64,000 nt of DNA, taken from positions 22,526 to 86,525 of the forward strand of contig JAWXAU010000159.1 in the NCBI GenBank assembly GCA_034439655.1. Direction: 5' to 3'. Below are positions 1 through 21,596 of this stretch, in pieces. A program made the translations under genes and the position numbers. The DNA is from Bacteroidota bacterium. Its GTDB lineage: Bacteria; Bacteroidota; Bacteroidia; UKL13-3. The notes under the pieces are model-generated. The model saw only the letters and a program-made list of their open reading frames with translations, ran no database searches and was not told where the DNA came from. Numbering within the stretch: the first letter of the stretch is position 1; every line of letters starts with the position of its first letter.

Positions 1-1122
1 GACACTAGCATTACACATACTTTTAGCGGACCAGGCACCTATAAAGTTTTATTAACCGCTTTTGATAGTTTGGGTCTATACTTCGATACTATTTCTATGT
101 ATATAGGAGTTGATAGTGTGTTAAAGGCAACTATTGCAACTGCTAACCAAACTATTTGTCCCGGTGAAATTGTGCAATTGGTTTCTACAGTTAATTTGGT
201 GGGAGGTGCCACCGTAATTTGGCAACCCGGAGGCAGTCTCATAGATTCCACGTCATTGGTGGTGGCTGCAAAACCAAATAATACTACGCGATACAAATTG
301 ACCTATAGTAGAAACGGTTGTAGTGATACAAATTCTGTTTTGATAACGGTGCTTGCCCCTCCATTATTTGATATACTATTCGACACGGTTTGTTTTGGTA
401 CTCCTACTTTTATCAGAACCGCACAAAATATTTCTTCCACACTTAATTTTATTTGGGATTTGGGAGATGGCGACACCAGTACTAGCAAAACCCCCATGCA
501 TACTTATGCAAAAGCGGGTGATTATAATGTAACCATTACCGCTACACAGGGAATTTGTTCGCAATTATCTTCCAGAACCATTACCGTAAAACCGCTACCG
601 GAAACAATTTTTTCCTATTCACCAAACGAAATATTTTTTGATAATCCCAAAATTACTTTTGTAGACGGGGGGAAGGATATTGCTCGTCGTTTATGGGATT
701 TTGGCGATGGAATTACCGATACAGATTCTGTAGTAGTTCATAATTTTTTAGATACAGGGTATTATAATGTTTCACTCATTAATTTTAGTGCTTTTGGTTG
801 CACAGACACTGTTTCCCAAACTATATTAATTAGACCCATTATACTACTTTATGTACCCAATGCATTTACCCCAAACAGGCAAGGCCCTATCGAAAACGAA
901 ACATTTTACCTTACTTGCAACGACCATTTGCCAGAGTTTCATTTTGTTTTATATAATAGATGGGGCGAAAAAATATATGAGACCTTCGATCAAAAATTTG
1001 TTTGGGACGGTACTTTTAAAAACAAGCCAGTTGAAGCAGGACTCTTTATTTGGAGAATGAATTTCCGAATCTCTGCCGAGAAAGGTGAAGTAAAAACTGG
1101 TGAATTAATTTTATATAGATAA
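1..1122 (+). CDS. PKD-domain cell-surface protein with T9SS type-B (gliding-motility-associated) C-terminal sorting domain; 5'-truncated by window edge
   Basis: Frame 1 is open from nt 1 (DTSITHTFSGPGTYKVLLTAFDSLG = PKD signature). Second PKD-like motif HTYAKAGDYNVTITATQGICS. C-terminus LYVPNAFTPNRQGPIENETF...YNRWGEKIYE...WDGTFKNKPVEAGLFIWRM matches the type-B T9SS CTD (TIGR04131-like). Confidence 0.8.
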   Translation, partial: DTSITHTFSGPGTYKVLLTAFDSLGLYFDTISMYIGVDSVLKATIATANQTICPGEIVQLVSTVNLVGGATVIWQPGGSLIDSTSLVVAAKPNNTTRYKLTYSRNGCSDTNSVLITVLAPPLFDILFDTVCFGTPTFIRTAQNISSTLNFIWDLGDGDTSTSKTPMHTYAKAGDYNVTITATQGICSQLSSRTITVKPLPETIFSYSPNEIFFDNPKITFVDGGKDIARRLWDFGDGITDTDSVVVHNFLDTGYYNVSLINFSAFGCTDTVSQTILIRPIILLYVPNAFTPNRQGPIENETFYLTCNDHLPEFHFVLYNRWGEKIYETFDQKFVWDGTFKNKPVEAGLFIWRMNFRISAEKGEVKTGELILYR

Positions 1123-5240: not shown

Positions 5241-5516
5241 ATGAACGAAGACTTAGACCCCTTAGAAATGGATGTGCTCAATTGCCTATATTTTGTAGAG
5301 CCCTTCCAAACTATATTAGAAGAAACTGGTTTGAGCCCAGCAATAGCGGGAGATGTATTGAAAACACTTATTGCCAAAAAATGGGTAAGCCCGATGAAGT
5401 TTGATGAGAAGGAACAAGAATATATTCGTAGTTTTATATATGATACCGACCACATGCACGATTATCGATATATGGCCACCAAAGAAGGGTTGATGAAACA
5501 TAATGGACTCGAATAA
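5241..5516 (+). CDS. hypothetical small protein (91 aa)
   Basis: ORF only. Located between convergent genes. Confidence 0.25.
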   Translation: MNEDLDPLEMDVLNCLYFVEPFQTILEETGLSPAIAGDVLKTLIAKKWVSPMKFDEKEQEYIRSFIYDTDHMHDYRYMATKEGLMKHNGLE

Positions 5517-7019
5517 CTACAAGTTTTTTAATCTATTGTAGTCAATTTTTGTATGATGTCGTGGGTCTTTGGGTAATGAATCAAGTTTTCTTGTTTCAAT
5601 ATTACCTAAACCAAGTTTACTTAATTCAGAAGTAAAAAACGCCTTATCAAAATCAGCACTAGGCACAAAAAATATAATTGGAATATTATTGATTTGTATA
5701 ATAGTTCCTTCTTTAATTCCTGATATATTTTTTAAAGTATATTCAAGAATAAATGGGAATACGTAGGTGTTATGGTATACAAATGATTCTTTGCAACGAC
5801 CTAGTAAATAAAGTACGCCGTCATTGCCTAGCCTTCCCGCATCACCTGTACGATGCCACAAACCCGAGTTGGTTTTAATTTTATTATTGAGTTGGTCTTT
5901 TGCTAAACCTAAATAATTTTCTAAGACATGTTTCCCTTTTACAACAATTTCTCCAAACTGTCCAACGGAACATTGTATGTTTTCCCATTCATTGCCACTA
6001 TATTCATGGTAAGTATCTGGCAAAAATTGTATAATACATAATTCTGTTTGTGCATCGGGAATACCGACAGGCAGACCATTTTCTAATGTGTAATATTGAA
6101 GTTTATTTGCATCAATGTGGCTAATAGGTTCCGCTTCGGTACTTCCATATACTATCATATTTTTGGCATCTGGAAAAGTATATACTATATCTTTTGCTAC
6201 ATCAGGGAATACAGGCCCACCACCAGTTACCAAATGCTTTACTGTATAATTTTGGAATTTGTTCTCAACTCCATATTTCCCTAAAGATGCAGTATAATAT
6301 GGAGATGCTACAATACTTTCTATGTAGTACCTTTCTATATCGCTATATATATTCTCTGGTATAAATGTTTTAGGTTTAGATGTTTTAAAACTCGGTATAA
6401 CTGTGGTTTTTCCATGTCCCAAATTAAGCATCGTAACAATAGGCAAGGTGCATAATTCTGTAAAGTTTTCACTCCCAGCTATTAAATGTTCGAGTGCATT
6501 AAACTGCTCAAACAAAAAACCATGTGTGCGATTGGCAGCCTTCGGTATACCTGTACTTCCACTCGTAAGCGTAATTAATGCAGAAACGTTTTCCTCCATC
6601 TCAACAGGTAGATGATTATATATATTAGTTTGCTTAGTAATAAATACTTTAAGAGGGATTGTTCTCAAATCCTTATTGAACCATGCAAACAACGTAGCTT
6701 TCCAACCCCCTGCAAACCCTTTGCAGTCAATCATTCTGCAACATTGGCTAATACGCTCTTTGTTGGCCCATTCATCAATAAATACAGCTACAGAACCATT
6801 ATAGAAAATAGCAAGTAGCATAATATATAAGTCTATGCTCATCGGAATATAGACCAAGACTTTATCGCCTTTTAATATATTCTTTTCTTGCAAATATGCT
6901 ACTTGTTGTAATACTTTTACTTTTAATTGTGCATAGGTAATTTCCATTCCCTTATGAATCAGTGCGACTTTGTCGGGATACTGCTCTGCCGCTTCCAGAA
7001 AGAGATTAACGATATTCAT
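5517..7019 (-). CDS. AMP-dependent synthetase/ligase (acyl/aryl-CoA ligase family, ANL superfamily)
   Basis: AMP-binding motifs TLTSGSTGIPKA (TSGSTGxPK) and YGSTEAE (YGxTE). C-terminal GKIDYNRL-like lysine motif. 500 aa. Confidence 0.8.
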   Translation of the reverse strand: MNIVNLFLEAAEQYPDKVALIHKGMEITYAQLKVKVLQQVAYLQEKNILKGDKVLVYIPMSIDLYIMLLAIFYNGSVAVFIDEWANKERISQCCRMIDCKGFAGGWKATLFAWFNKDLRTIPLKVFITKQTNIYNHLPVEMEENVSALITLTSGSTGIPKAANRTHGFLFEQFNALEHLIAGSENFTELCTLPIVTMLNLGHGKTTVIPSFKTSKPKTFIPENIYSDIERYYIESIVASPYYTASLGKYGVENKFQNYTVKHLVTGGGPVFPDVAKDIVYTFPDAKNMIVYGSTEAEPISHIDANKLQYYTLENGLPVGIPDAQTELCIIQFLPDTYHEYSGNEWENIQCSVGQFGEIVVKGKHVLENYLGLAKDQLNNKIKTNSGLWHRTGDAGRLGNDGVLYLLGRCKESFVYHNTYVFPFILEYTLKNISGIKEGTIIQINNIPIIFFVPSADFDKAFFTSELSKLGLGNIETRKLDSLPKDPRHHTKIDYNRLKNL

Positions 7020-7022
7020 TGT

Positions 7023-8027
7023 TTATAGTGCTTTACCAAATAAGGTATAGTGTCTAAAATCATTACCTGAAAACTTCGCTGATACATTCACGGATTTATT
7101 TTGCACGTGCATAAAAGCATGGTATAATTTTGTAATATGATTTTGGGATGCGTATTGCACAATCATATCACAAAGCAATTGAGTAATTCCAGCATATTTT
7201 CTTGCAGGATTCCTAGCCAATGTTTTTATTATAATACTTTGCTTACTTGCATCAAATAAATCTGGAATTGCAAATATAAATCCTGCTAATTTACCTGTCA
7301 CTGTGTCTTCTGCCAGAATAATCAAATCAGGATTGAGAATTGGCATTAGCAGTAAATACAGGTTTAAGAAATCTTTTGATGAGATAGGCGTATACAGAAA
7401 ATTATGAACAAAAACCTCGCTACACAAATCATATAACAGTAGTAATTCTTTCTCCAAATTGTTCATATCAATTGAACGGATATTTATTTGCTGTTGATCA
7501 AATCTTTCTTTTAAATATAAGTATTTTCCGAACGCCAAATCGGTATCGACTTGAGATAGGTAATGTGAAATTGCTCCAAACCCATTTGCTTCGAACTGCT
7601 GCGAGTAATAATGTTGATGAAGGTTTTCAGTAAAAAATAGTGGGTTTGTTTGACTATCTATAAATCGATAAGCTTTCCAAGTGCTTCCATTCATTGGGCC
7701 AATAATATAAGTATAGTCCTTTTCTTTGGCAATTTCAAATGCTGAATTTAATAATGTTTTTGCAGCTTCATGTTTGTCAATGCATTCATAATTACCTATT
7801 GCAATCGCAGATGTATTATTATATAATAAATCTTTGTTTTCATATAATGCCAAACGTCCGCAAGGCATATCCTCTTCCATTAGTAATAAACAAGTTGCTA
7901 TGCCTGCTAGGGCAAATTGATTTTTAAAACGCTGCGACCTATCACCATACAAATCAAAAGGGAAATTTATAAAATCCTCATACTTTGCATGAAGCTCATT
8001 TACCACAATCGTATGATACTTTTCCAT
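7023..8027 (-). CDS. hypothetical protein, GNAT-like (putative N-acyltransferase) fold
   Basis: C-terminal KTLARNPARKYAGITQLL resembles GNAT motif A (R/Q-x-x-G-x-A/G). 334 aa. Tightly packed between the AMP-ligase and the membrane protein. Confidence 0.3.
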   Translation of the reverse strand: MEKYHTIVVNELHAKYEDFINFPFDLYGDRSQRFKNQFALAGIATCLLLMEEDMPCGRLALYENKDLLYNNTSAIAIGNYECIDKHEAAKTLLNSAFEIAKEKDYTYIIGPMNGSTWKAYRFIDSQTNPLFFTENLHQHYYSQQFEANGFGAISHYLSQVDTDLAFGKYLYLKERFDQQQINIRSIDMNNLEKELLLLYDLCSEVFVHNFLYTPISSKDFLNLYLLLMPILNPDLIILAEDTVTGKLAGFIFAIPDLFDASKQSIIIKTLARNPARKYAGITQLLCDMIVQYASQNHITKLYHAFMHVQNKSVNVSAKFSGNDFRHYTLFGKAL

Positions 8028-8028
8028 C

Positions 8029-8724
8029 TTATACTTGTATATTAAACATCCATAAATAATTTACCGCAATGCAAGCAAGGGGAATAAAGAAATTATCAGA
8101 GCCTTTGCTGGCTAACAGTTCCGTGACGGCGGTGATAACTGACATTAACAAAACAAAAGTATATATATTTCCAAGAATAGGTGCATGGAGAAAATGGGCC
8201 AATAAACTTGTTACTATAGCAGCTACTATAATAAAACCCACAAATCCCGAGAGAGATTTTTTGTCGCCAAAGATGTACATAATTCCTATTGGGAAACCTC
8301 TACCACAGAGAGCCGCAGCAGGGTCGGCCAATGCCATAACCAATACCGGTTGATAGAACCAAAAATAACTCTGGAGGCCTGTATGTCCTCGCATAAAATC
8401 GTAAAATAAAAAACTCATGTATACTGCCACTGGATATAAAATACTCCCATGAGATTTGCGGTCTATAGCATTAATAGAACGAAGCAAATTAAATTTCAAA
8501 CTTACCACTAACAGGATAACAAATGATGAACAAATACCCAATACCCACCAATGTGAGCTGAATAATATAGGGAACAGCATGGTGAGTAAACCTGAACCTA
8601 TATGTACCACTTTCCGTGAATGCTCACCTTGTACTTTCAATTTATGATACAATACTTCTGCCGTTGCAAATAAAACGATATATGCTCCCGATAATATAAT
8701 ATAATGTAGTAAATCAGTATTCAT
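8029..8724 (-). CDS. CTP-transferase-family (CdsA/dolichol-kinase/phytol-kinase-like) integral membrane protein
   Basis: Multi-TM. ALADPAAALCGRGFPIG...GDKKSLSGFVGFI resembles the C-terminal DxxAxxxGxxxG...K..S..G signature of PF01148 but lacks the canonical CdsA SPxKTxEG. 4-bp overlap with the upstream DUF3419 gene. Confidence 0.45.
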   Translation of the reverse strand: MNTDLLHYIILSGAYIVLFATAEVLYHKLKVQGEHSRKVVHIGSGLLTMLFPILFSSHWWVLGICSSFVILLVVSLKFNLLRSINAIDRKSHGSILYPVAVYMSFLFYDFMRGHTGLQSYFWFYQPVLVMALADPAAALCGRGFPIGIMYIFGDKKSLSGFVGFIIVAAIVTSLLAHFLHAPILGNIYTFVLLMSVITAVTELLASKGSDNFFIPLACIAVNYLWMFNIQV

Positions 8725-9803
8725 ATTTTTTGATCAACTATATATTGATTGTAAAAAAAGCATTTATCAATGCTATGTAGTTTGTTGGAGAGTTCCTTTT
8801 GAAAAGCAAACTGCGTAGGATAACTTTCTGACAAACGCCTTGGCACCATCAGGTTCCAATAGGCTACACGGGCATTTGGGTTGGAATAGGTAGAAATAAT
8901 ATCTGCGTTTTCTCTCATTTGCCCTTCGCTCATGTATTCAAATATATCCGACAAGTTAAACCCATCAAATTTTCCGTAGGTGCTTAAAATTTCTTCTGCT
9001 GTTCCCTGTACAAATTTTATATTCTTTATATTAGCTCTTACTTTCTTCAAGTTTTCGGGTAATAGATATTGGGGCAATTGCGGACTAAATTTACCTGTAA
9101 ATATATATGATAAGTACTCATTATTTTGGCAAGAAACCGACATCAAATGTTCGTCAGCCCGTTGGTATATAAATTCACCTACATTGAGCTTTACATGTTT
9201 CATGAATTCAGGGGAACGGCCTGCATTACCCATTACCTTCTTGCTATAGAACAACTTGAAAAGCAGTTTCCACCGCCATGAATTCCATTTGTAATTATAA
9301 AATTTTGCTTGTTCTATTTCTGCTTTTTTGTCTAGTAATTTCTTAGTAGTTCCTTTCGAATGAATAAAGGGTAATACCCATTTGCGAAACAAAGAAAAAT
9401 ATTTTTCGAATTTTCCCGCATGTATAATACCTTTTTCTATATCGCCCAGATGCTGGTCAAAATATTTTTTAGCGTCACTATGCAATTCAAGTCTGAAAGA
9501 TTTATATATCTTTACTCTTTGGCTACTGTCCGTAAATCCCAAGAATGCCAATAACTCATCGTCCTCAAGCTGAGTGATAGCAAGCTTTTTCAACTCGCAT
9601 AAATATAATTGGATGGGGTTCAAATCTCCAGCAACTATAAGTTCCGGATTTAAGGTGAGTAGCGAAAAACTATTATCGCCCGCTGATGCAATAGAGAATA
9701 TCTTCCCCCCTTGTGCGGTTTTTAATCCTTCTAATAATACAGATGAATCTTCCCAACAATTGGCATATCTTATAATATCAAAATTGGTATTTTTGAATTG
9801 CAT
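8721..9803 (-). CDS. DUF3419 / BtaA-like protein (SAM:diacylglycerol 3-amino-3-carboxypropyl transferase-like)
   Basis: N-terminal IRYANCWEDSSVL...IFSIASAGDNSFSLL matches the conserved A-x-CWED start of BtaA/DUF3419 family proteins. 360 aa. Confidence 0.6.
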   Translation of the reverse strand: MQFKNTNFDIIRYANCWEDSSVLLEGLKTAQGGKIFSIASAGDNSFSLLTLNPELIVAGDLNPIQLYLCELKKLAITQLEDDELLAFLGFTDSSQRVKIYKSFRLELHSDAKKYFDQHLGDIEKGIIHAGKFEKYFSLFRKWVLPFIHSKGTTKKLLDKKAEIEQAKFYNYKWNSWRWKLLFKLFYSKKVMGNAGRSPEFMKHVKLNVGEFIYQRADEHLMSVSCQNNEYLSYIFTGKFSPQLPQYLLPENLKKVRANIKNIKFVQGTAEEILSTYGKFDGFNLSDIFEYMSEGQMRENADIISTYSNPNARVAYWNLMVPRRLSESYPTQFAFQKELSNKLHSIDKCFFYNQYIVDQKI

Positions 9804-9807
9804 GGTA

Positions 9808-12396
9808 TTATATAGTTTCTAAAATTTTTATATTTCCTGTCGAACCATCCATCTCCACCCAGTCTCCTGTTTTCAATCTTTGCAATAGTCCTGAAATACC
9901 CACCACACATGGTATCCCCATCTCGCGTGAGACAATAGCTGAGTGGCTGAGCAAACTTCCACGTTCCACCAAAATGCCTGAAGCAGTTGGAAATAATGAT
10001 ACCCAGCCTGGGTCGGTGCTGCTGGTTACCAATATATCTCCATCTAATCCTTCGGCTTCGGAAGGGTGTGTCAATACCCGTACTTTTGCTTTTACAACAC
10101 CTGCACAGCAAGGAATTCCCTTTAAGTCTCCTTCCAAAATTTGCATATTTTTTTCTGCAGCCATTTTGTTGCCTGCATATAAAGGTCCATAACTTTTTAT
10201 CCTTTCTGCTGGATTCATCTTTTCAAAATCGAGATACATTTGTTTGCGAAGTAAAACTAAATCTTTCAAATTACTATGCACGAATGTTCCCTTAATGGCT
10301 CCGAAAATTTCAATTTGTGTTAGATAAAAAATATCAGCAGCGTTTTCCAATAAATGTTCTGCATAGAACTTATTCCCTATCTCCGTAAAAATATTCCTCA
10401 CCATGGCAAAACCTCTGGTCCTTTCGTAGCGAAGGTTTTCACGATTGCTCACTAGATACCGTGCTTTGCCCATGATATAATTGAAGAAGAATTTTTTAAT
10501 GGGTTTATTTTTTAACTTATTATATATAAACAACTCCGCTTCTTTCCTCACTTTGGGTTCTGTATGCACACCTCTAATACTTTCTGCTTTCAAATATCCT
10601 TTTAATATTTGGATATACATTTCTGGTTTTTGACGGTACGTAATTGTTTCCAATTTAAGTTCGCCCACCGTTCTATCTCCCCAACGATCCAAATATTTAT
10701 CTATTTTTTGCTTGAGTTCAAAATACTTTTCATCATGAAGCATTCTCCATATTTTCAGATTGTCCTTTTCCTCAAATAAAGTTTTATATAATATATTTTG
10801 TTTAATAAAGGAGACAAGTTCAAGCCCCATCATAACAGGCTCCACAGAAACAATATCGCCTGATCCTGCCATCAAATCATTATGTAAATTGCTATGTTCA
10901 TCACCAGATATTTTCACCACCAATTTTTGCAAGAGTCCGAAATATATCATACAAAAAAAGTCATTGGTAAGTGGTGCTTTCCATTTTTTCACCAAGGTAT
11001 CTTCAAACTCTAGATAATCATTCATCAATTCATCAGGTCTGCGTTGTGAGAAATCTATCTGTTTATATGTGGTAATAACCTTATTGAAATGTTCTAAGAA
11101 TTCTCTTCGTTGCTTGTCTACCGTAAACAAATTATATAATACAAATCGAATAGCACGCAACACATCCATATAATCACGTAATCCTGCTCGCTTAGGCTCT
11201 TCCGTATTAAATGATTCCTTAACACCCATCATTTTCTCCATGAACTTGGCATTGATGGAAAAGCCAGGCAATAGTGCCAAGGCATTATACCAATTATTCA
11301 AATTATAATATACACGTCCATATATATGTCCCAGCATATTGGCATATACTTCTCCATTGGCTGCAATCACAGAGGGACGAATACCCATGATGGCACTGAA
11401 TTGCCGGTACACACTATCATACATTTTCGCAATAAATGAAAAAGTTAGTGGCAGGGTGAAACCCGGGTATGATTCTATAATATTACTATTGTCCCAAATG
11501 GTGGATTTTGCTCCTGAATCAGGCACGTGCACATGGCTAGTAATAGGACGAGCCTGCAATAAGTATAATATATTGTTTTTATAAGCAAATTCTATATCTT
11601 GGTATTTGTGAAAATACTTATATAATGTATTTAATACTTCTGCTACTTCATAAATTTGTGCATCGCTCAAAGAAGCCTGATTTTGCTTGCCTTCGGGTAC
11701 TGCTACTATTTTTACTCCTGATTTATTCTCAATATCAAAAACCAACATTTCAGTTTTTACTGCAATCTGTTTTTCTATATTGTTTTCTTTGACAGTAAAT
11801 GTATCTGCTAATAATTCTCCCGATACCAAACCTTCACCCAACCCATATAAAGTACTAATCGTTTTCACAGTTCTATTTCCGTCCAATGGGTTGATACCAA
11901 AGCCCACCCCAGCGACATCTGCATCAATCATTTCTTGTATAATTATAGATACAGGGACAATTCTACTTTCACCTGCATTATATACTTTTACCCTAAGTGC
12001 GTATGCCGATTTCCACACTTTTTTAATGGCATTATATATTTCATTGAAGGGAACATATAGTAAAGTTTCATACTGTCCTGCAAAAGATTTATCTCCAGTA
12101 TCTTCTGCAATTCCCGATGATCTTACTGCAAAATATTTAGATTCGTCTACTCCAAAATATGCTTTTAAAGAACTTAGCAGTGCATCATCAAATATATAAT
12201 TGTCAATGATAGTTTCTGGCTTTTCGTTAGGATTGCTTTCAATTTCGTAAATAATAATCGCTGCGGGAACTACTGCATAGTCGGGTACTCTGAGTCCTAT
12301 ACTTTGCAAATGAAATAAATTCCAAGCTTTCATACCAGTGATTTGTTCATCACCGCTTTGTATTTTATAATCTTTAGAAAAAATAATTTGTTTCAT
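9808..12396 (-). CDS. PEP-utilising phosphotransferase, PEP-synthase / rifampin-phosphotransferase-like architecture (PPDK_N ATP-grasp + C-terminal His swivel domain)
   Basis: N-terminal GMKAWNLFHLQSIGLRVPDYAVVP (PEP/pyruvate-binding domain, GxKAxNL). C-terminal GSLLSHSAIVSREMGIPCVVG (PEP-utilisers mobile His domain). 862 aa, as in RPH-family enzymes. Confidence 0.75.
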   Translation of the reverse strand: MKQIIFSKDYKIQSGDEQITGMKAWNLFHLQSIGLRVPDYAVVPAAIIIYEIESNPNEKPETIIDNYIFDDALLSSLKAYFGVDESKYFAVRSSGIAEDTGDKSFAGQYETLLYVPFNEIYNAIKKVWKSAYALRVKVYNAGESRIVPVSIIIQEMIDADVAGVGFGINPLDGNRTVKTISTLYGLGEGLVSGELLADTFTVKENNIEKQIAVKTEMLVFDIENKSGVKIVAVPEGKQNQASLSDAQIYEVAEVLNTLYKYFHKYQDIEFAYKNNILYLLQARPITSHVHVPDSGAKSTIWDNSNIIESYPGFTLPLTFSFIAKMYDSVYRQFSAIMGIRPSVIAANGEVYANMLGHIYGRVYYNLNNWYNALALLPGFSINAKFMEKMMGVKESFNTEEPKRAGLRDYMDVLRAIRFVLYNLFTVDKQRREFLEHFNKVITTYKQIDFSQRRPDELMNDYLEFEDTLVKKWKAPLTNDFFCMIYFGLLQKLVVKISGDEHSNLHNDLMAGSGDIVSVEPVMMGLELVSFIKQNILYKTLFEEKDNLKIWRMLHDEKYFELKQKIDKYLDRWGDRTVGELKLETITYRQKPEMYIQILKGYLKAESIRGVHTEPKVRKEAELFIYNKLKNKPIKKFFFNYIMGKARYLVSNRENLRYERTRGFAMVRNIFTEIGNKFYAEHLLENAADIFYLTQIEIFGAIKGTFVHSNLKDLVLLRKQMYLDFEKMNPAERIKSYGPLYAGNKMAAEKNMQILEGDLKGIPCCAGVVKAKVRVLTHPSEAEGLDGDILVTSSTDPGWVSLFPTASGILVERGSLLSHSAIVSREMGIPCVVGISGLLQRLKTGDWVEMDGSTGNIKILETI

Positions 12397-12402
12397 AATA
12401 GA

Positions 12403-13329
12403 TTATATAAGATTGCCAATCATGGGGCCTGCACCTAAAATTAAATACATACAGATGCTCCAAATTCCTGAAGATAATTCAATTTGCTTGGCATATTTTG
12501 TTTGCATATTGCTCCTGAACATCAATGCGGGTATACAACATACCACAAACAATACAGCCAATATAATATATGGACCCACATTATAATTTGCATAATAACA
12601 AGCACCCATTGCCAGCATCATAGTTCCCAATAGACACAATATCCAATATATGGGAGCAGCTTTATGACCCATTAGATTGGTATAAGAAACAACACCAGGT
12701 TCTTCCTTATCTGGAGTTTTTATTTTGCGACCTATCTCCAATACAATTCCATTCATAAACGAAACCAAAAAGAAAAATATCAAACCCTTGGGAGCAGAAG
12801 CTCCCGCCAGGAACCAATCGTAGCCGCTTGCGTACACATCGACCAAAGGTATAATAAGCATGTGCGATACCACATACCAAAATTGTCTTTTTCGCAACCA
12901 TTCTACTATAAAGAATTCTTTCAACATTAACATCATATATAGCATCGCTACTAAATACAATATAATCATATTGGGGTAGGTAAATATTTGCACGAGTATT
13001 TGCAAACCTGCTACACAAAAACCTATATATTTTAGTTCGTTTAAAGATATAATACCACGGGGAACTGGCAAATAACTTCTATATAATTTATCTTCTTCAG
13101 CATCCTTATGTTCATCGCAAATTCGCAATAATAAAAACAAGGTAATGGTATTAAATATACAAACCAGATAAGGCTCCCATGCTATGAAACCATCGGCTCC
13201 ACGGCAAATTCGAGAATACGATATGGCAGAAAAACTAAATGCTGCGATGAGCAAACCGTGTGTTGCAAACGGAAATCTTTCTTTTTGATATATATAAAAT
13301 CGTTTGATGAATGAATCCATAATATACAA
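12403..13329 (-). CDS. UbiA-family-like integral membrane prenyltransferase (putative)
   Basis: About 8 predicted TM segments. Asp-rich motif RICDEHKDAEEDK (DxxxDxxxD) after TM2 as in UbiA-superfamily enzymes. 308 aa. Confidence 0.4.
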   Translation of the reverse strand: MYIMDSFIKRFYIYQKERFPFATHGLLIAAFSFSAISYSRICRGADGFIAWEPYLVCIFNTITLFLLLRICDEHKDAEEDKLYRSYLPVPRGIISLNELKYIGFCVAGLQILVQIFTYPNMIILYLVAMLYMMLMLKEFFIVEWLRKRQFWYVVSHMLIIPLVDVYASGYDWFLAGASAPKGLIFFFLVSFMNGIVLEIGRKIKTPDKEEPGVVSYTNLMGHKAAPIYWILCLLGTMMLAMGACYYANYNVGPYIILAVLFVVCCIPALMFRSNMQTKYAKQIELSSGIWSICMYLILGAGPMIGNLI

Positions 13330-13373: not shown

Positions 13374-14648
13374 TTATTTTTTTCTTCCGAATATTTTATG
13401 TGCTTTCGAAAAATTACCAGACGCCATTGCTGCGGCAATAGATAGTTCGCCACAGAGCACGGTTGCACCGCATATTTCTGCAAACTTTCGTGCCGAACCA
13501 GGCCCCACACAATCCAATAAATTTAAACATTCGCGTTGGGTGGGTAATCCAGTTCCGCCACCCACCGTACCCACCATCAAACTGGGCAAAGTAACTGCTA
13601 AATATAAATCGCCATTGCCCACAACTTCCATCCTAGTAACACCCACAAAAGCTTCCGATACACATGCTACATCTTGCCCGCAAGCCATAAATATAGCAGT
13701 TAATCCATTGGCAAAATGCCCTTGAATGCCGATGCTTCCGCTCAATACCGATGCTACTGAAGAAGTTTGCCAATATATAGCAATATCTTCGGGCGTGGAA
13801 CCCAATACTTCTTTTACCACCTGCCGCGTTATTTGTGCTTCGGCAGTTACTTTTTTTCCACGCACGGACGAAAATGAAACTGCGGTAGCTTTTTTATCGC
13901 CTGCATAATTACTTTCAATATACCATTGCTTTGGTTTTATGGGCAAGTGTTCTATTATATAATGACATACAGCATCAGTACATATCGTCACCATATTTTG
14001 TCCTGCGGCATCGCCAGTTGTATAATCAAAAATCATCACAGCTTGGTTGCCTTCCATATTCAATCTGAAATCTTCCAGTTTTGCATGATTGCTATGTTTA
14101 CTTACAATTTCGCGAAATACTTCAATTTTATCCAGAACCCAAAACATAAAGGTACCCAATTCGCTCAATGAATTAAATCGAAAAACAGGAGCTCTTTGAA
14201 CAGCTTCGGTAAGGCAAACCGAGGTTATACCTCCGCATAGCCGTGATGCTTTTGCACCTCTGTTATACGATGCCACCAACGCCCCTTCACTAGTAGCCAT
14301 TGGCACATAGAAATCGCCCTGTGCAAGCGTGCCGCTTATATGGAGTGGCCCCATAATTCCAGTTGGTATTTGGGTCATTCCTATATAATTTTCTATATTG
14401 CCCCGCAAAGATTCTGTGTCTTCAAATTTTGATACCCCGGTTAAAAAGGGCAACTCCATGTTCTTTTCCTTTTTTATAAAATCTAAACGATGCTCCCAAG
14501 CTTCCTTACTCCAAGAAATAGGACCCGGAATGGAAGGGCTGATACCTGAACTTTCTCGCAACTTCAAGTCTTCGAGTACTTGCTCGAAAGGCTTGATACG
14601 GGTAAATAGTTCAATAAGTTTGCGTGCTTTTTCGCTGCTTGTCGACAT
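13374..14648 (-). CDS. hydroxymethylglutaryl-CoA reductase (class I, NADPH), mevalonate pathway
   Basis: ENYIGMTQIPTGIMGPLHISG, GDAAGQNMVT and VGTVGGGTGLPTQRECL match the conserved HMGR catalytic motifs (ENVIGxxxIPxGxAGPL, DAMGMN, GTVGGGT). Confidence 0.9.
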   Translation of the reverse strand: MSTSSEKARKLIELFTRIKPFEQVLEDLKLRESSGISPSIPGPISWSKEAWEHRLDFIKKEKNMELPFLTGVSKFEDTESLRGNIENYIGMTQIPTGIMGPLHISGTLAQGDFYVPMATSEGALVASYNRGAKASRLCGGITSVCLTEAVQRAPVFRFNSLSELGTFMFWVLDKIEVFREIVSKHSNHAKLEDFRLNMEGNQAVMIFDYTTGDAAGQNMVTICTDAVCHYIIEHLPIKPKQWYIESNYAGDKKATAVSFSSVRGKKVTAEAQITRQVVKEVLGSTPEDIAIYWQTSSVASVLSGSIGIQGHFANGLTAIFMACGQDVACVSEAFVGVTRMEVVGNGDLYLAVTLPSLMVGTVGGGTGLPTQRECLNLLDCVGPGSARKFAEICGATVLCGELSIAAAMASGNFSKAHKIFGRKK

Positions 14649-14773
14649 AAATTGTTAATTATTAAAGATTGACAAAGATATGTTTACAATTGGTAATACA
14701 AAATCTGATTTATCGTAAAGTACAACCAAGAATTGTATAAACCATTAAGAAGTTAAGGGGCATTAAGCATATT

Positions 14774-14945
14774 TATACCAATTCTTAAACTAAAATAGTT
14801 CTCCGCCTGTGGCGGATTTGGTTTTTAGAATGGTAATGCCGAACTACATCCCGAAAGCCCCGCTTAATCCCGATAATTATCGGGATGCGGGGGGTTTAGC
14901 CCCTTTCTTTTCGACTATTATATATTGAGTTTCGGTATTACTTAA
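14774..14945. repeat. interspersed repeat element, copy A (long form with internal CCCGATAATTATCGGG palindrome)
   Basis: Shares tataccaattcttaaactaaaatagttctccgcctgtggcggattt...tagaatggtaatgccgaactaca...ctttcttttcgactattatatattgagtttcggtatta with copies at 25924, 41858 (reverse complement) and 52124. Confidence 0.8.
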
Positions 14946-15017: not shown

Positions 15018-15980
15018 TTATATAATACCCTCCCTATTCAAATCATGAATATGCAAAAGGCCGACGTACTTCCCTGAATCGGTGACTAGAAGTTGCGAAA
15101 TTTTATATTCTCTCACTAGCTCCAAAGCCTCGGTAGCCATAGCATTTTTTTCTATTTGCTTGGGAGCAGTATTCATCAAATTCGTAGCCGTAGTGCCAGC
15201 CAAATTATCAGTTTTTTCTATCAATCGACGCAAGTCCCCATCGGTTATAATACCGCATATCTTATCACCATTAATTACCGCAGTTGCACCTAACCGCCCA
15301 CTACTTATGGAATATATAACTTCTTTTAAAGGTGAATCAGGATTTACAATTGGTTTTTCTGATGATATAATATCACCAACTTTCATATATAATTTTTTGC
15401 CCAAAGCACCGCCTGGGTGAAACTTGGCAAAATCTTCAGGACCAAAATTTCTGCATGATAATAATGCAACTGCAAGTGCGTCACCCATCACCAATTGAGC
15501 CGTGGTACTGCTTGTGGGGGCAAGGTTATTGGGACATGCCTCGGTGCTTATGGTGCAATTCAATAACATATCAGCATGTGTGGCCAAGTAAGAATTTGTA
15601 TTGCCCACCATCGCTATCAATTTATTGCCTGCTCTTTTCAATAATGGGGTGAGTACTTTTATTTCGGAAGTCTCCCCACTTTTACTAATTGCTATTATAA
15701 TATCATCTTGTTGCAAAGTTCCCAAATCTCCGTGCACGGCATCGGCGGCATGCATAAATACGGAGGGCGTTCCCGTACTGTTGAGCGTAGCTACAATTTT
15801 TTGCCCGATAATGGCACTTTTGCCAATGCCCGTAACCACTACTCTTCCCGTGCTTTGTATAATACATTGTACCGCATCTGCAAAACCAGAATCTATATGT
15901 TGTTCCAAAGCCAATATCTCCGCAGCTTCGGTACGAATAGTTTGTTTGGCATTGTCAATGATTTCTTGGGGTGAGAGCAT
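15018..15980 (-). CDS. kpsF: arabinose-5-phosphate isomerase KpsF/GutQ (SIS + tandem CBS domains)
   Basis: GIGKSAIIGQKIVATLNSTGTPSVFMHAADAVHGDLG (SIS). C-terminal CBS pair. Start set at MLSPQEII (ATG at 15980, complement). The track ORF to 16139 is an upstream extension. Confidence 0.85.
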   Translation of the reverse strand: MLSPQEIIDNAKQTIRTEAAEILALEQHIDSGFADAVQCIIQSTGRVVVTGIGKSAIIGQKIVATLNSTGTPSVFMHAADAVHGDLGTLQQDDIIIAISKSGETSEIKVLTPLLKRAGNKLIAMVGNTNSYLATHADMLLNCTISTEACPNNLAPTSSTTAQLVMGDALAVALLSCRNFGPEDFAKFHPGGALGKKLYMKVGDIISSEKPIVNPDSPLKEVIYSISSGRLGATAVINGDKICGIITDGDLRRLIEKTDNLAGTTATNLMNTAPKQIEKNAMATEALELVREYKISQLLVTDSGKYVGLLHIHDLNREGII

Positions 15981-16281
15981 GGGCTTTTTGTTTGGAATTT
16001 GTGGTGCAAATATATGGGGGAGTTTGCAGTTTTTGGTAGACAGTTGTGACCCTGAACGTTCCCGAAAGTATTCGGGAGACAGGTGTAGTTTAGTGTACCT
16101 GAATAAAAATGAATATATAATACTTACTAAAACTATCACTTAGTAATACTGATTATATATATAAAAGTGACGAAAAATACCCAGACATAAAAAGTATTTA
16201 TGTGATTTGGATATTTGGGAAATAGGGATACCATTGAAACGACATTTATAAGACAAATAAGTAAGTTAGCTGTAATTTGAT

Positions 16282-18619: not shown

Positions 18620-19357
18620 ATGACACGAATAGAATTAATTAATCAGATTTTTGATCAAACGGATTTTACAAACTACCTCGAAATAGGTACTGAAAAAGGA
18701 TTTTCTCTATTGCCTATCAAATGCAAAAACAAAATCTCGGTAGACCCTTTTTACAAGATAAAATTGCGTACAAAACTGAAGTGGCTTATTAAAATTCCTG
18801 CTAATTTTAATAACAAATATTTTGAAGAAACAAGTGATGATTTTTTTGATAAAAGAAAAAAAGTATTACAAGATTTTGGCTCAATTGATATCGCATTTTT
18901 AGACGGTCTTCACACCTTCGAAGCTTCGCTAAATGATGTATTAAATTCACTTAAGTATTTAAACCCCAAAGGTATTATAATCATGCACGATTGCTTTCCA
19001 CCCCACAAAGCAGCGGGCTTGCCCACTAGAGATTTCCCCCGTGATGACGAACAACAAGTTGAAGGTTGGACTGGTGAATGGTGCGGTGATGTATGGAAAA
19101 CTATTGTATACCTACGCACCAATTTATCTGAGCATTTGGATGTATGTGTTATCAATACCGATTATGGATTGGGTATTATAAGGATTAAAAGTAAAAATGA
19201 TACCGATTTAAGTATTGATAAAAAATCATTCGATGAAATTGATAAGATGGATTACGATGCTATGATACAAAATGGTGCATCAATGATAGATTTGAAAAAT
19301 GTTGACTACGCAAAGAAAATCATTGAAGAAGTTGCGGCTAACTTTCCAAAAGTTTAA
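18620..19357 (+). CDS. class I SAM-dependent methyltransferase (TylF/MycF / CmcI-like)
   Basis: LEIGTEKGFS (motif I), DIAFLDGLHTFEASLNDV and IIMHDCFP match metal-dependent O-methyltransferase-like class I MTases. Confidence 0.5.
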   Translation: MTRIELINQIFDQTDFTNYLEIGTEKGFSLLPIKCKNKISVDPFYKIKLRTKLKWLIKIPANFNNKYFEETSDDFFDKRKKVLQDFGSIDIAFLDGLHTFEASLNDVLNSLKYLNPKGIIIMHDCFPPHKAAGLPTRDFPRDDEQQVEGWTGEWCGDVWKTIVYLRTNLSEHLDVCVINTDYGLGIIRIKSKNDTDLSIDKKSFDEIDKMDYDAMIQNGASMIDLKNVDYAKKIIEEVAANFPKV

Positions 19358-20821: not shown

Positions 20822-21592
20822 ATGAAAGCAATTTGGAAAGGAGCAATCAATTTTGGACTGGTAAATATACCTGTAAAACTATATAGTGCCACCGAGCAAA
20901 GTAATCTTGATATGGATATGGTTGATAGCAGAGACATGAGTAAAATTCGTTTTCAACGCGTAAATGAAAATACGGGGAAGGAAGTGAAATGGGAAAATAT
21001 AGCAAAAGCATATCTGTTAGATGGTGAGTTTATAATGTTAGAGGACGCTGATTTTGAGCAGGCGGCACCCGAAAAAAGTAAAATAATTGAGGTTAACCAT
21101 TTTATTGATGAAGGTGAAATTGATACCATCTATTTTGAAAATTCATATTATGTGGAACCAGAAAAAAGTGGTGAAAAAGCTTATGCGTTATTGCATGAAG
21201 CTCTCGCAAAATCGGGCAAGGTGGGCATTGCTCAGTTTGTGTTGCGGACAGCAGAAACAATAACCGTATTGAAACCACTTAACAATATTTTAGTATTGAG
21301 TAAAATACGATTTGCACAAGAAATACGAAGTACAGAAGATTTTAACCTCCCTGCAAAATCTGTGGTGAAGCCCGCTGAACTAAAAATGGCCATCTCACTT
21401 ATTGAACAATATACAGAACCTTTCAATATTGAAAAATACAAAGATGAGTATGCCAGCGAACTGCTTAAAGTAATCAAAGCCAAAGCCACAGGCAAGAAAA
21501 TTAGAGGCCCAAAACTAAAAGTAAAATATAATAAAACAGATAACCTCATGGATCAACTCAAAGCTAGTTTATCGAAAAAGAAAGTATCATAA
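20822..21592 (+). CDS. ku: Ku protein (NHEJ DNA end-binding)
   Basis: MKAIWKGAINFGLVNIPVKLYSATE is the classic bacterial Ku N-terminus. 256 aa. Confidence 0.9.
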   Translation: MKAIWKGAINFGLVNIPVKLYSATEQSNLDMDMVDSRDMSKIRFQRVNENTGKEVKWENIAKAYLLDGEFIMLEDADFEQAAPEKSKIIEVNHFIDEGEIDTIYFENSYYVEPEKSGEKAYALLHEALAKSGKVGIAQFVLRTAETITVLKPLNNILVLSKIRFAQEIRSTEDFNLPAKSVVKPAELKMAISLIEQYTEPFNIEKYKDEYASELLKVIKAKATGKKIRGPKLKVKYNKTDNLMDQLKASLSKKKVS

Positions 21593-21596
21593 CACA

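What the first reader, a model, noticed from the sequence alone, without database searches (positions are those of the whole stretch)
8721..9803. Stand-alone BtaA-like (DUF3419) gene without a BtaB methyltransferase partner
The conserved A-x-CWED N-terminus identifies the family of the betaine-lipid (DGTS) synthase BtaA. Canonical DGTS synthesis needs BtaB, which is absent from the operon. Its stop overlaps the start of a CTP-transferase-like membrane protein, implying tight functional coupling. An orphan BtaA-like enzyme in Bacteroidetes could make a homoserine-type lipid head group (DGHS-like) or modify a different acceptor.
Basis: partly seen in the sequence, partly recalled or inferred. 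Interest (0 to 1): 0.55.

Follow-up and report, generated by a model that had tools for sequence, protein, structure and literature searches.

The report
BtaA-like gene in conserved lipid operon
The gene is a real relative of the betaine-lipid enzyme BtaA, but it is not a stray copy: it is one of seven genes of an uncharacterised operon, found in hundreds of bacterial species, that probably builds an unknown membrane lipid carrying an amino-acid-like head group.

Summary
Window 8721-9803 (-) is an intact 360-aa DUF3419 protein (Pfam E 1e-62) with the ANCWED motif and a SAM-binding class I methyltransferase core. Its stop overlaps (ATGA) the start of a 231-aa CTP_transf_1-like membrane protein. 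No BtaB homologue lies in the window.

"Stand-alone" is misleading. The gene sits in a seven-gene minus-strand operon: HMG-CoA reductase homologue, divergent UbiA-type transferase, rifampin-phosphotransferase-type dikinase, DUF3419, dolichol/phytol-kinase-like membrane protein, tandem-GNAT acyltransferase, acyl-CoA ligase.

The same set occurs around this DUF3419 subfamily in at least 578 species genomes. Most are Bacteroidota, but Verrucomicrobiota, Lentisphaerota, Gemmatimonadota, Geobacteraceae, Planctomycetota, Chloroflexota, Brevibacillus and an alphaproteobacterial plasmid also carry it. Gene order is shuffled in these groups, yet the genes stay clustered.

Natural fusions join DUF3419 to the reductase, the dikinase, the GNAT and a CDP-alcohol phosphatidyltransferase. 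BtaAs that are followed by btaB score 73-98 bits on the subfamily profile; cluster-linked members score 320-457.

My best reading is a new BtaA-like subfamily acting in an uncharacterised pathway for an N-acylated, aminocarboxypropyl-bearing isoprenoid or phospholipid conjugate, not DGTS or DGHS. The chemistry is inferred. I found no paper on this operon.

The parts
13374..14648 (-). Gene 1: class I HMG-CoA reductase homologue (424 aa), the first gene of the operon.
   Evidence: It matches Pfam HMG-CoA_red at 3e-115. It scores below the NCBIfam equivalog cut-off: TIGR00533 322.9 bits against 441.8. The best PDB match is the archaeal class I enzyme 6hr7. The ENxIG, DAAGQN and GTVGGGT motifs, the cis-loop S..DKK and the C-terminal His are conserved, but the Lys aligned with human K735 is not. 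It is co-located with the cluster in 61 of 87 loci. Homologues occur fused to DUF3419 (P0323) and to an APH-type kinase (L069).
12403..13329 (-). Gene 2: divergent UbiA-superfamily intramembrane transferase (308 aa; the TTG start is uncertain).
   Evidence: It matches Pfam UbiA at 30.3 bits, below the 34.2 cut-off; the Brevibacillus orthologue scores 56.8 bits. The family profile's best PDB hit is M. jannaschii DGGGP synthase 6m31 (E 4e-5), then chlorophyll synthase. The first Asp-rich motif D72/D76/D80 is conserved. The second is replaced by E198-x-G-R201-K202...E209. It is present in 71 of 87 loci and stays paired with the dikinase in all but one of the rearranged loci that hold both genes (L076).
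9808..12396 (-). Gene 3: rifampin-phosphotransferase/PigC-type dikinase (862 aa).
   Evidence: It matches Pfam PPDK_N at 5e-51 and PEP-utilizers at 9e-25. Orthologues also hit Rph_4th. The best PDB matches are the Listeria rifampin phosphotransferase entries 5fbs/5hv1, and window His818 aligns with the catalytic His825. It is present in 82 of 87 loci. Natural dikinase-DUF3419 fusions exist: P0296 and P0392.
8721..9803 (-). Gene 4, the finding: a DUF3419/BtaA-superfamily SAM-dependent transferase (360 aa) of a distinct, cluster-linked subfamily.
8029..8724 (-). Gene 5: dolichol/phytol-kinase-like (CTP_transf_1 superfamily) membrane protein (231 aa), translationally coupled to gene 4.
   Evidence: It matches Pfam CTP_transf_1 at 25.7 bits, cut-off 24. 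JGI names homologues 'phytol kinase' or 'dolichol kinase'; NCBI names them 'phosphatidate cytidylyltransferase'. It equals the N-terminal half of a ~440-450-aa protein in other phyla. It is present in 76 of 87 loci and almost always lies directly after DUF3419. The ATGA overlap is shown.
7023..8027 (-). Gene 6: tandem-GNAT N-acyltransferase (334 aa).
5517..7019 (-). Gene 7: adenylate-forming acyl-CoA ligase (500 aa), the last gene of the operon.
   Evidence: It matches Pfam AMP-binding at 1e-34. The best NCBIfam hit is PRK09274 'fatty acid CoA ligase family', 276 bits against a cut-off of 478, ahead of olefin beta-lactone synthetase at 136 bits. It is present in 72 of 87 loci. The next ORF, 5241-5516 (+), is convergent, so the operon ends here.
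14649..14816 (-). Upstream intergenic region: a terminator-like hairpin after the KpsF-like gene (14816-14802), followed by the AT-rich leader of the operon.
   Evidence: The hairpin has 6 pairs, 5 of them GC, with a T-rich tail. The sequence was read. No promoter was established.

Best explanation
Shown: the ORF is an intact SAM-binding enzyme of the DUF3419/BtaA superfamily, and it belongs to an orthologous group separate from btaB-linked BtaA. It is one of seven co-directional, tightly spaced genes: an HMG-CoA reductase homologue, a divergent UbiA-type intramembrane transferase, a rifampin-phosphotransferase-type dikinase, DUF3419, a dolichol/phytol-kinase-like CTP-dependent membrane enzyme, a tandem-GNAT N-acyltransferase and an acyl-CoA ligase. 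This set travels with the subfamily across many phyla. It survives gene-order shuffling, with three adjacencies that mostly hold: reductase-DUF3419-membrane protein, UbiA-dikinase, and GNAT-ligase. Several components occur as natural fusions with DUF3419.

Inferred: the operon is a dedicated pathway for a membrane-associated conjugate, not for DGTS.
- By homology with BtaA, DUF3419 transfers the 3-amino-3-carboxypropyl group of SAM onto a hydroxyl of a lipid or isoprenoid-type alcohol intermediate. This makes a homoserine-type ether and releases methylthioadenosine.
- The tandem GNAT then acylates the new alpha-amino group with an acyl-CoA made by the ligase.
- The reductase homologue makes a primary alcohol (mevalonate or an analogue) from a CoA thioester.
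- That alcohol, or the lipid, is phosphorylated by the dolichol-kinase-like enzyme and the dikinase. In some lineages an APH-type kinase fused to the reductase takes the place of the membrane kinase.
- The UbiA-type enzyme joins the phosphate-activated piece to its partner.
- In some lineages an extra CdsA-like cytidylyltransferase plus a CDP-alcohol phosphatidyltransferase indicate a CDP-activated, phosphodiester-forming step, so the product may be phospholipid-like.

The order of steps and the identity of the acceptor are not established.
For: Family and fold.

The operon in the window.

Conservation:
- The same seven genes occur in Dyadobacter, Sphingobacterium and Sporocytophaga, on a Roseinatronobacter plasmid and in Brevibacillus laterosporus, where a P450 follows.
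- The genome scan found at least 578 species.
- tblastn of the seven proteins against 87 loci found the dikinase in 82, the membrane protein in 76, the GNAT in 76, the ligase in 72, UbiA in 71 and the reductase in 61.
- 43 of 81 loci have the window's exact order. At least nine other gene orders also occur; most of them keep the UbiA-dikinase and GNAT-ligase pairs adjacent.

Separation from BtaA: btaB follows btaA in L007, L088, L089 and L090, but no btaB occurs in any cluster locus. Subfamily-profile scores are 320-457 bits for cluster-linked members and 73-98 bits for btaB-linked BtaAs.

Natural fusions:
- DUF3419-GNAT in L047, L069 and L073, and in P0299; P0267 (672 aa) has a C-terminal extension of the same length, but only its DUF3419 domain was detected.
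- Reductase-DUF3419 in P0323.
- Dikinase-DUF3419 in P0296 and P0392, within the same cluster context.
- CDP-OH_P_transf-DUF3419 in P0284, followed by the membrane protein, GNAT and ligase.
- Reductase-APH kinase fusion in the loci that lack the membrane protein.

Accessory genes: a CdsA-like gene in six loci, with a CDP-alcohol phosphatidyltransferase gene beside it (five by ORF clustering, the sixth by tblastn).

Partner identities:
- The GNAT model resembles the tandem GNAT MAB_4324 and MshD.
- The dikinase keeps its catalytic His.
- The UbiA profile is nearest to DGGGP synthase and chlorophyll synthase.
- Homologues of the membrane protein are named phytol or dolichol kinase.
Against: No biochemical or genetic data exist for any gene of the cluster, so every catalytic step is inferred from family membership.
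- Aminocarboxypropyl transfer cannot be told from methyl transfer by sequence. Identity to btaB-linked BtaA is only 23-27%.
- In Bacteroidota the reductase may simply be the housekeeping mevalonate enzyme placed next to the cluster. Its catalytic residues are canonical, and it is absent from some cluster loci such as L082, L080 and L001.
- The UbiA-like protein lacks a normal second Asp-rich motif, so ordinary prenyl transfer is uncertain.
- The CTP_transf_1 hit of the membrane protein is marginal, and its profile finds no solved structure.
- The CDP module is present in only about 7 loci.
Confidence: 0.55

Rival explanations
1. One reading: an orphan BtaA acts on diacylglycerol and makes diacylglyceryl-homoserine (DGHS) as an end product, because no BtaB methylates it.
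For: The protein is in the same Pfam family as BtaA and keeps the SAM-binding core. There is no BtaB in the window or in the related loci. The neighbour belongs to the CTP_transf_1 superfamily, which also holds enzymes of diacylglycerol and phosphatidate metabolism.
Against: The gene belongs to a different orthologous group from btaB-linked BtaA. It is never alone: six other genes that DGHS synthesis would not need are conserved with it and are fused to it in nature. The acceptor-side motifs differ; the subfamily has NLSDIFEY and YWNLMVPR where BtaA has LLDHQDW.
Confidence: 0.1
2. Ordinary DGTS synthesis: a btaB homologue lies elsewhere in the genome and the enzyme is a normal BtaA.
For: Only 64 kb of a MAG could be inspected, so a distant btaB cannot be excluded. 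A Bacteroidota (Chondrinema) does carry btaA-btaB on a plasmid.
Against: In all four btaA loci examined, btaB directly follows btaA. None of the 80+ loci of this subfamily has a btaB within 10 kb. The Chondrinema BtaA scores only 98 bits on the subfamily profile. Conserved linkage to six unrelated genes is unexplained by this reading.
Confidence: 0.04
3. The enzyme uses SAM differently in this subfamily, as a methyltransferase or in another SAM-dependent alkyl transfer. It decorates an isoprenoid or natural-product intermediate, so the product has no homoserine-type group.
Against: The only characterised members of the family transfer aminocarboxypropyl. A tandem GNAT, an amine acylase type, is fused to or adjacent to the enzyme. 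An aminocarboxypropyl transfer would create exactly the free amine such an enzyme needs.
Confidence: 0.2
4. The cluster is mainly an isoprenoid-precursor or prenol-salvage route: thioester to alcohol to phosphate to diphosphate to UbiA transfer. DUF3419 and the GNAT have an accessory or regulatory role.
For: The cluster holds a reductase, two or three phosphorylating enzymes and a UbiA-type transferase. A reductase-kinase fusion exists. Homologues of the membrane protein are named phytol or dolichol kinase.
Against: DUF3419 is the best-conserved member of the set, and it is the component physically fused to the reductase, the dikinase and the GNAT. The reductase and the membrane kinase are the dispensable members (L080, L082, L049). 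No decarboxylase or isomerase of a mevalonate-type route is conserved in the cluster.
Confidence: 0.1

Closest known systems
BtaA/BtaB betaine-lipid (DGTS) synthesis (Rhodobacter sphaeroides, rhizobia, algal BTA1)
   Same: Both share the Pfam family DUF3419, the class I SAM-binding core with invariant G42 and D60, and the N-terminal Y-x-x-CWED motif. The presumed chemistry is also shared: transfer of the SAM aminocarboxypropyl group to a lipid hydroxyl.
   Different: There is no BtaB partner. The gene belongs to a separate orthologous group, with btaB-linked BtaAs scoring 73-98 bits against 320-457 bits on the subfamily profile. The acceptor-side motifs differ. The gene sits in a seven-gene operon with a reductase, a UbiA-type transferase, a dikinase, a membrane kinase, a GNAT and a ligase. 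The product is therefore unlikely to be DGTS or DGHS.
Archaeal-type phospholipid assembly (DGGGP synthase, then CDP-archaeol synthase, then CDP-alcohol phosphatidyltransferase)
   Same: The cluster holds a UbiA-superfamily membrane enzyme whose profile is nearest to DGGGP synthase. It also holds a CTP_transf_1-superfamily membrane enzyme and, in about 7 loci, a CDP-alcohol phosphatidyltransferase. A mevalonate-pathway reductase is linked to it.
   Different: The similarity to DGGGP synthase is weak (E 4e-5), and the second Asp-rich motif is altered. No GGGP synthase or G1P dehydrogenase lies in the cluster; a probe hit 1 of 96 loci, and only weakly. The dikinase, DUF3419, GNAT and ligase have no counterpart in the archaeal pathway.
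Rifampin phosphotransferase, prodigiosin ligase PigC and flavonoid phosphate synthetase type dikinases
   Same: The window protein has the same three-part architecture (ATP-grasp PPDK_N, a central domain, a swivelling His domain). Its catalytic His818 aligns with His825 of the Listeria enzyme.
   Different: The central substrate-binding region is not alignable to a known substrate site. Here the enzyme is an operon partner of UbiA and DUF3419, and in some organisms it is fused to DUF3419. It is not a resistance or pigment enzyme.
Mycothiol synthase MshD and other tandem GNATs
   Different: No sequence-level family assignment is possible for the window protein. The acyl donor and the acceptor are unknown.
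Fungal siderophore mevalonate branch (SidI mevalonyl-CoA ligase, SidF transacylase); recalled from memory, not tested here
   Same: It combines HMG-CoA-reductase-derived mevalonate, an adenylate-forming CoA ligase and a GNAT-type N-acyltransferase. This would explain why a reductase, a ligase and a GNAT travel together even in lineages that I recall, without testing it here, as normally relying on the non-mevalonate (MEP) route to isoprenoids.
   Different: No hydroxyornithine pathway, NRPS or enoyl-CoA hydratase lies in the cluster. No homology test against SidI or SidF was done.
Plant phytol salvage (VTE5 phytol kinase, VTE6, then a UbiA-type phytyltransferase)
   Same: A CTP-dependent membrane prenol kinase homologue is combined with a UbiA-type transferase. 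A second phosphorylating enzyme is also present.
   Different: The second kinase here is a PEP-synthase-type dikinase, not a VTE6 homologue. No aromatic-acceptor pathway is present.

Membership tests
[quoted passage not shown] | Full-length match to the DUF3419 (PF11899) profile. | tested here: met
   E 9.9e-63, 213 bits, covering 3-382 of the 385 profile positions.
[quoted passage not shown] | SAM-binding class I fold: a glycine-rich loop after strand 1 and an acidic residue at the end of strand 2. | tested here: met
   [not shown]
[quoted passage not shown] | Genetic pairing with the N-methyltransferase BtaB. | tested here: not met
   A BtaB homologue follows btaA in L007, L088, L089 and L090. 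None was found in the window or in more than 80 loci of this subfamily. The rest of the MAG could not be searched.
[quoted passage not shown] | Orthology with btaB-linked BtaA. | tested here: not met
   On the subfamily HMM, cluster-linked proteins from four other phyla score 320-457 bits and btaB-linked BtaAs score 73-98 bits. Pairwise identity is 23-27%.
[quoted passage not shown] | Aminocarboxypropyl transfer to diacylglycerol (enzyme activity). | not testable with these tools
   This needs an enzyme assay that tells methylthioadenosine from S-adenosylhomocysteine release, with an acceptor panel.
Conserved reductase-UbiA-dikinase-DUF3419-membrane kinase-GNAT-ligase operon (unnamed; defined here) | Co-location of the seven genes with the subfamily DUF3419. 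| tested here: met
   All seven are contiguous in the window. The exact order recurs in 43 of 81 loci, and the components occur in 61-82 of 87 loci.
Rifampin-phosphotransferase/PigC-type dikinases (gene 3) | PPDK_N ATP-grasp domain plus a PEP-utilizers swivel domain with the catalytic His. | tested here: met
   Both Pfam domains match. His818 aligns with His825 of 5fbs.
UbiA prenyltransferase superfamily (gene 2) | Two Asp-rich Mg2+/diphosphate-binding motifs in a multi-helix membrane protein. | tested here: inconclusive
   The first motif is conserved (D72, D76, D80). The second is replaced by E198-x-G-R201-K202...E209. The Pfam score is below the cut-off for the window protein and above it for the Brevibacillus orthologue.
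Dolichol kinase / phytol kinase / CdsA superfamily, CTP_transf_1 (gene 5) | Match to PF01148 and the conserved polar motifs in a multi-pass membrane protein. | tested here: inconclusive
   The match is 25.7 bits against a cut-off of 24. The long forms from other phyla have no Pfam hit. Source annotations say phytol or dolichol kinase. The family profile finds no PDB relative. E34, R37, K38, H41, D134 and G141 are invariant.
Class I HMG-CoA reductase (gene 1) | Catalytic Glu/Lys/Asp/His and HMG-binding residues. | tested here: inconclusive
   The catalytic and cis-loop residues are conserved. The Lys aligned with human K735, which I recall as the salt bridge to the HMG carboxylate, is replaced by S/T/variable residues in 24 of 24 cluster-linked sequences. 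The score is below the TIGR00533 equivalog cut-off.
Tandem GNAT N-acyltransferases (gene 6) | Two GNAT domains in one chain. | tested here: met
   [not shown]

The most novel reading that the evidence does not exclude
The seven-gene operon encodes the synthesis of a so far undescribed class of bacterial membrane lipid. This lipid would have an isoprenoid-derived, possibly ether-linked and phosphate-containing core. Its head group would be an N-acylated O-(3-amino-3-carboxypropyl), homoserine-type, unit donated by SAM. It would be made by hundreds of Bacteroidota species and by scattered members of at least seven other phyla. If the UbiA-like enzyme acts like DGGGP synthase, the pathway could also be the missing downstream use of the archaeal-type GGGP synthase activity already demonstrated in Bacteroidetes (PMC7852524).
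Probability: 0.2. Interest if true: 0.8.

Novelty: new variant of a known kind. Interest (0 to 1): 0.6.

Why it matters
DUF3419 is widely used as a marker for betaine-lipid (DGTS) synthesis, for example in PMC6642084. This analysis shows a large bacterial subfamily, with at least 578 species genomes and 438 clusters at 50% identity, for which that inference is probably wrong. These proteins belong to a different, conserved and still uncharacterised multi-enzyme pathway.

If the pathway makes a new aminolipid or isoprenoid conjugate, it would add a lipid class to Bacteroidota envelopes, where I recall 'unidentified aminolipids' being routinely reported in polar-lipid profiles. It would also give the first function to this subfamily of rifampin-phosphotransferase-type dikinases and to a divergent UbiA clade. 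It would explain why an HMG-CoA reductase homologue sits in this cluster in lineages such as Brevibacillus, Geobacteraceae and Verrucomicrobiota, which I recall as normally relying on the non-mevalonate (MEP) route (not tested here).

The natural fusions give a ready-made guide for ordering the steps experimentally.

Tried and rejected
- Literature: nine full-text searches found no paper on this gene set. They covered DUF3419, BtaA with Bacteroidetes, combinations of UbiA, HMG-CoA reductase, PEP synthase, GNAT, AMP-binding and phytol kinase, 'BtaA-like', and GGGP synthase with Bacteroidetes.
- The 'conserved operon' around the flavobacterial UbiA-297 (PMC9235831) looked promising. It is the ebo cluster, a different gene set.
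- NCBIfam has no model that hits either this protein or a btaB-linked BtaA, so it gives no membership test.
- PDB sequence searches found nothing for DUF3419 as a single sequence. The UbiA-like single sequence gave only one chance-level 15.6-bit match (5x0s, E 0.098). The membrane-protein profile also found nothing.
There is therefore no recurrent co-location, and the archaeal-lipid link stays speculative.
- KpsF as an eighth member: it is adjacent in the window and in L008 and L034, and lies within 5-8 kb of the last cluster gene in L094 and L096. It is absent from the other loci, so I did not count it.
- Other recurrent ORF families in the loci turned out to be antisense shadow ORFs or unrelated ABC transporters.
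- A Kelch-like ORF upstream in L049 and the neighbours in L080 gave nothing relevant.
Full report
**1. The observation**

The ORF reported at 8721-9803 exists on the minus strand. It runs ATG to TGA and encodes 360 aa. It is a full-length match to Pfam DUF3419 (PF11899): E 9.9e-63, 213 bits against a cut-off of 28.2. It carries Y-A-N-C-W-E-D at residues 13-19.

Its TGA shares the tetranucleotide ATGA with the start of the next ORF, 8029-8724, 231 aa. That ORF matches CTP_transf_1 just above threshold, at 25.7 bits against a cut-off of 24. None of the neighbouring genes is a methyltransferase.

To test for BtaB I needed a genuine example. A tblastn of the window protein against plasmids found a 'BtaA family protein' directly followed by a class I methyltransferase on a plasmid of Chondrinema litorale, a Bacteroidota. 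With that methyltransferase as query, a homologue lies directly after the btaA-like gene in three rhizobial plasmids (L088, L089, L090). Nothing was found in the 64-kb window or in any related locus at E<=1e-3, apart from one 40-bit generic hit.

**2. The gene is not alone**

On the minus strand, seven ORFs follow each other, with gaps of -4 to +44 nt:
- 13374-14648: HMG-CoA reductase homologue.
- 12403-13329: UbiA-like.
- 9808-12396: PPDK_N plus PEP-utilizers.
- 8721-9803: DUF3419.
- 8029-8724: the membrane protein.
- 7023-8027: no Pfam hit.
- 5517-7019: AMP-binding.

Upstream, a KpsF-like gene is separated from the run by 369 nt that contain a terminator-like hairpin. Downstream, the next ORF is convergent.

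The closest database protein is 100% identical and comes from a Bacteroidota MAG. Looking up homologues from cultured Dyadobacter, Sphingobacterium and Sporocytophaga showed the same gene series in each.

The series also occurs outside Bacteroidota. It is on a plasmid of the alphaproteobacterium Roseinatronobacter. It is in Brevibacillus laterosporus, where the sixth gene hits GNAT profiles and a P450 follows.

**3. How widespread and how conserved**

Of these, 578 encode a relative. Most are Bacteroidota: Flavobacteriales, Cytophagales, Sphingobacteriales, Chitinophagales and Saprospiraceae. The best 80 also include Verrucomicrobia, Lentisphaerae/Victivallales, Gemmatimonadota, Geobacteraceae, Parachlamydiales, Pirellulaceae, Caldilineaceae, Chitinispirillaceae and Kapaibacterium.

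A full HMMER pass over 1.84 billion representatives gave 438 clusters at E<=1e-30.

I ran tblastn with the seven window proteins against 87 loci:

| Component | Loci with a hit (of 87) |
|---|---|
| Dikinase | 82 |
| Membrane protein | 76 |
| Sixth gene (GNAT) | 76 |
| Ligase | 72 |
| UbiA-like | 71 |
| Reductase | 61 |

Many of the absences are contig ends. Of the 81 loci of the subfamily, 43 have exactly the window's order, and at least nine other orders occur. In the rearranged loci three adjacencies mostly persist: reductase-DUF3419-membrane protein, UbiA-dikinase and GNAT-ligase. The exceptions are L080, which splits GNAT from the ligase, and L076, which splits UbiA from the dikinase.

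The junction between DUF3419 and the membrane gene has a median gap of -4 nt and lies within +-30 nt in 70 of 76 loci. Clustering that survives rearrangement across phyla is strong evidence that the genes work together.

**4. Relation to true BtaA**

An HMM was built only from Bacteroidota-type members (A3). On it, cluster-linked proteins from Lentisphaerae, Geobacteraceae, Brevibacillus and Roseinatronobacter score 320-457 bits. The four btaB-linked BtaAs score 73-98 bits. A DUF3419 from a different rhizobial context scores 121 bits.

The alignment shows shared SAM-side residues (W17-E18-D19, G42, D60, Q65). The C-terminal motifs differ: the subfamily has NLSDIFEY and YWNLMVPR where BtaA has LLDHQDW. 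The window protein is therefore a member of the superfamily but not an orthologue of BtaA.

**5. The protein itself**

The glycine-rich loop after strand 1 (S-A-G-D-N, 40-44) and the acidic residue ending strand 2 (D60) are invariant.

No solved structure of the family exists. Whether the enzyme transfers aminocarboxypropyl or methyl cannot be read from the sequence. I infer aminocarboxypropyl from the family, and from the presence of an amine acylase next to it (see section 6).

**6. The partners**

- Gene 3 is most similar to Listeria rifampin phosphotransferase, and His818 aligns with the catalytic His825. NCBIfam places it nearest 'PRK06241.2-2', and it also resembles PigC and RedH.
- The family profile of gene 2 hits DGGGP synthase (E 4e-5) and chlorophyll synthase (E 0.003) as its only PDB relatives. 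The first Asp-rich motif is conserved, but the second is replaced by E-x-G-R-K...E.
- Homologues of gene 5 are called phytol kinase or dolichol kinase by JGI, and phosphatidate cytidylyltransferase by NCBI. Outside Bacteroidota the protein is about 440-450 aa, and the window protein corresponds to its N-terminal half.
- Gene 7 is a generic adenylate-forming CoA ligase.
- Gene 1 has all catalytic motifs of class I HMG-CoA reductase. In all 24 cluster-linked sequences, however, the position aligned with human K735 is not Lys. I recall that Lys as the salt bridge to the HMG carboxylate (Istvan and Deisenhofer). This is a lead, not a test.

**7. Fusions and accessory genes**

Natural fusions link DUF3419 to almost every partner:
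- DUF3419-tandem GNAT: L047, L069, L073 and P0299. P0267 (672 aa) has a C-terminal extension of the right length, but Pfam detected only its DUF3419 domain.
- Reductase-DUF3419: P0323.
- Dikinase-DUF3419: P0296 and P0392. Both sit in a UbiA > fusion > long membrane protein > GNAT > ligase context.
- CDP-alcohol phosphatidyltransferase-DUF3419: P0284, followed by the membrane protein, the GNAT and the ligase.

The three loci with the DUF3419-GNAT fusion lack the membrane protein. Instead they carry a divergent reductase fused to an APH/choline-kinase-type domain. I read this as a kinase replacing the membrane kinase and acting on the reductase's alcohol product. This is an inference.

Six Bacteroidota loci have a bona fide CTP_transf_1 cytidylyltransferase inserted in the cluster (E 1e-31), with a CDP-alcohol phosphatidyltransferase beside it; five by ORF clustering, the sixth by tblastn. 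Eleven to 18 Bacteroidota loci, depending on how they are counted, carry an SRPBCC lipid-binding-type ORF; in the 11 counted strictly as intra-cluster it lies between the GNAT and the ligase.

**8. The most likely mechanism**

Putting these together, the most economical reading is a dedicated pathway to a membrane-associated conjugate:
- DUF3419 installs a SAM-derived 3-amino-3-carboxypropyl group on a hydroxyl.
- The tandem GNAT N-acylates the new amine with a CoA thioester supplied by the ligase.
- The reductase, one or two phosphorylating enzymes and the UbiA-type transferase supply and attach an isoprenoid-type or other alcohol-derived piece.
- Some lineages add CDP-activation and phosphodiester formation.

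The conservation, the fusions and the fold assignments are shown. The substrate identities and the order of steps are inferred. I put 0.55 on this general statement and much less on any single step.

**9. Rivals**

- DGHS from diacylglycerol: 0.1.
- DGTS with a distant btaB: 0.04.
- A different SAM chemistry, such as methyl transfer: 0.2.
- A precursor or prenol-salvage route in which DUF3419 is accessory: 0.1.

The evidence for and against each is given in the structured fields.

**10. Novelty**

Nine full-text searches found nothing on this gene set. The flavobacterial UbiA operon described in PMC9235831 is the ebo cluster, not this one.

PMC6642084 uses DUF3419 as a DGTS marker. The present subfamily shows that this inference does not hold for many bacteria.

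PMC7852524 notes that Bacteroidetes GGGP synthases are active in vitro and that bacterial DGGGP-synthase-like UbiA proteins have unknown roles. A link to this cluster is conceivable. However, a GGGP synthase probe found no recurrent neighbour, so I list the link only as the novel case.

**11. Verdict**

This is a real gene, correctly assigned to its family, and the 'no BtaB' observation is correct. It is not an orphan. It marks a widespread, conserved and apparently uncharacterised seven-gene pathway. I classify it as a new variant of a known kind, with interest 0.6.

Noticed in passing
window 52367-63931 (-); also 70-1122 (+): A 3854-aa ORF carries at least 23 PKD domains. At the other end of the window, a 350-aa PKD protein has a CHU_C type IX secretion signal.
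   Followed up: partly
window 15018-16139 (-); L094 23246-24011; L096 21285-22328; L008; L034: A KpsF-like arabinose-5-phosphate isomerase gene (SIS plus CBS domains) lies directly upstream of the operon. A 45%-identical homologue also lies within 5-8 kb of the last cluster gene in two distant lineages that carry dikinase-DUF3419 fusions. Whether this is coincidence or a link to envelope (Kdo) synthesis is not resolved.
   Followed up: partly
window 20822-24089 (+): A Ku plus multidomain LigD gene pair, the non-homologous end-joining genes.
   Followed up: no
window 18620-19357 (+): A Methyltransf_24 ORF, the only methyltransferase seen in the window. It is on the other strand, 9 kb from the finding, and is not similar to BtaB.
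   Followed up: partly
window 45752-46765 (+): A polyprenyl synthetase gene lies 31 kb from the operon. It is a possible source of prenyl diphosphate for the UbiA-like enzyme, or simply a housekeeping gene.
   Followed up: no
window 13374-14648 (-), residues 292-299; alignment A7: The cluster-linked HMG-CoA reductase homologues have Y-W-[QRK]-[ST]-S-[TS] where archaeal, plant and human enzymes have ...K-N-L.... The Lys aligned with human K735 is therefore missing in all 24 sequences examined.
   Followed up: partly
L047 4131-6413 (-); L069 3261-5570 (-); L073 3036-5345 (-): A divergent HMG-CoA reductase is fused to an APH/choline-kinase-like domain (760-769 aa). It is transcribed divergently from a cluster variant that lacks the dolichol-kinase-like gene.
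   Followed up: partly
L006 (Rhizobium plasmid pMK-2) 817-7155; L095 7421-17891: Other DUF3419 proteins sit in quite different natural-product-like contexts. One lies with KAS III, an oxidoreductase, an MBL hydrolase and a CoF-synthetase-like ligase. Another is an MFS-DUF3419 fusion with a P450, a sulfotransferase, a shorter Rph-like dikinase and an aminotransferase.
   Followed up: no
L094 19135-19968; L096 17924-18844: A second UbiA gene lies just downstream of the cluster in the two dikinase-DUF3419 fusion lineages. The L094 copy is canonical (186 bits on Pfam UbiA); the L096 copy was only seen as a precomputed Pfam UbiA hit.
   Followed up: no
[not shown]
   Followed up: no
L082 11071-12420; L004 10071-11390; L005 4932-6251: Outside Bacteroidota the dolichol-kinase-like protein is twice as long. 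It has an extra C-terminal multi-pass membrane half that matches no Pfam family and has no separate counterpart in the Bacteroidota loci.
   Followed up: partly
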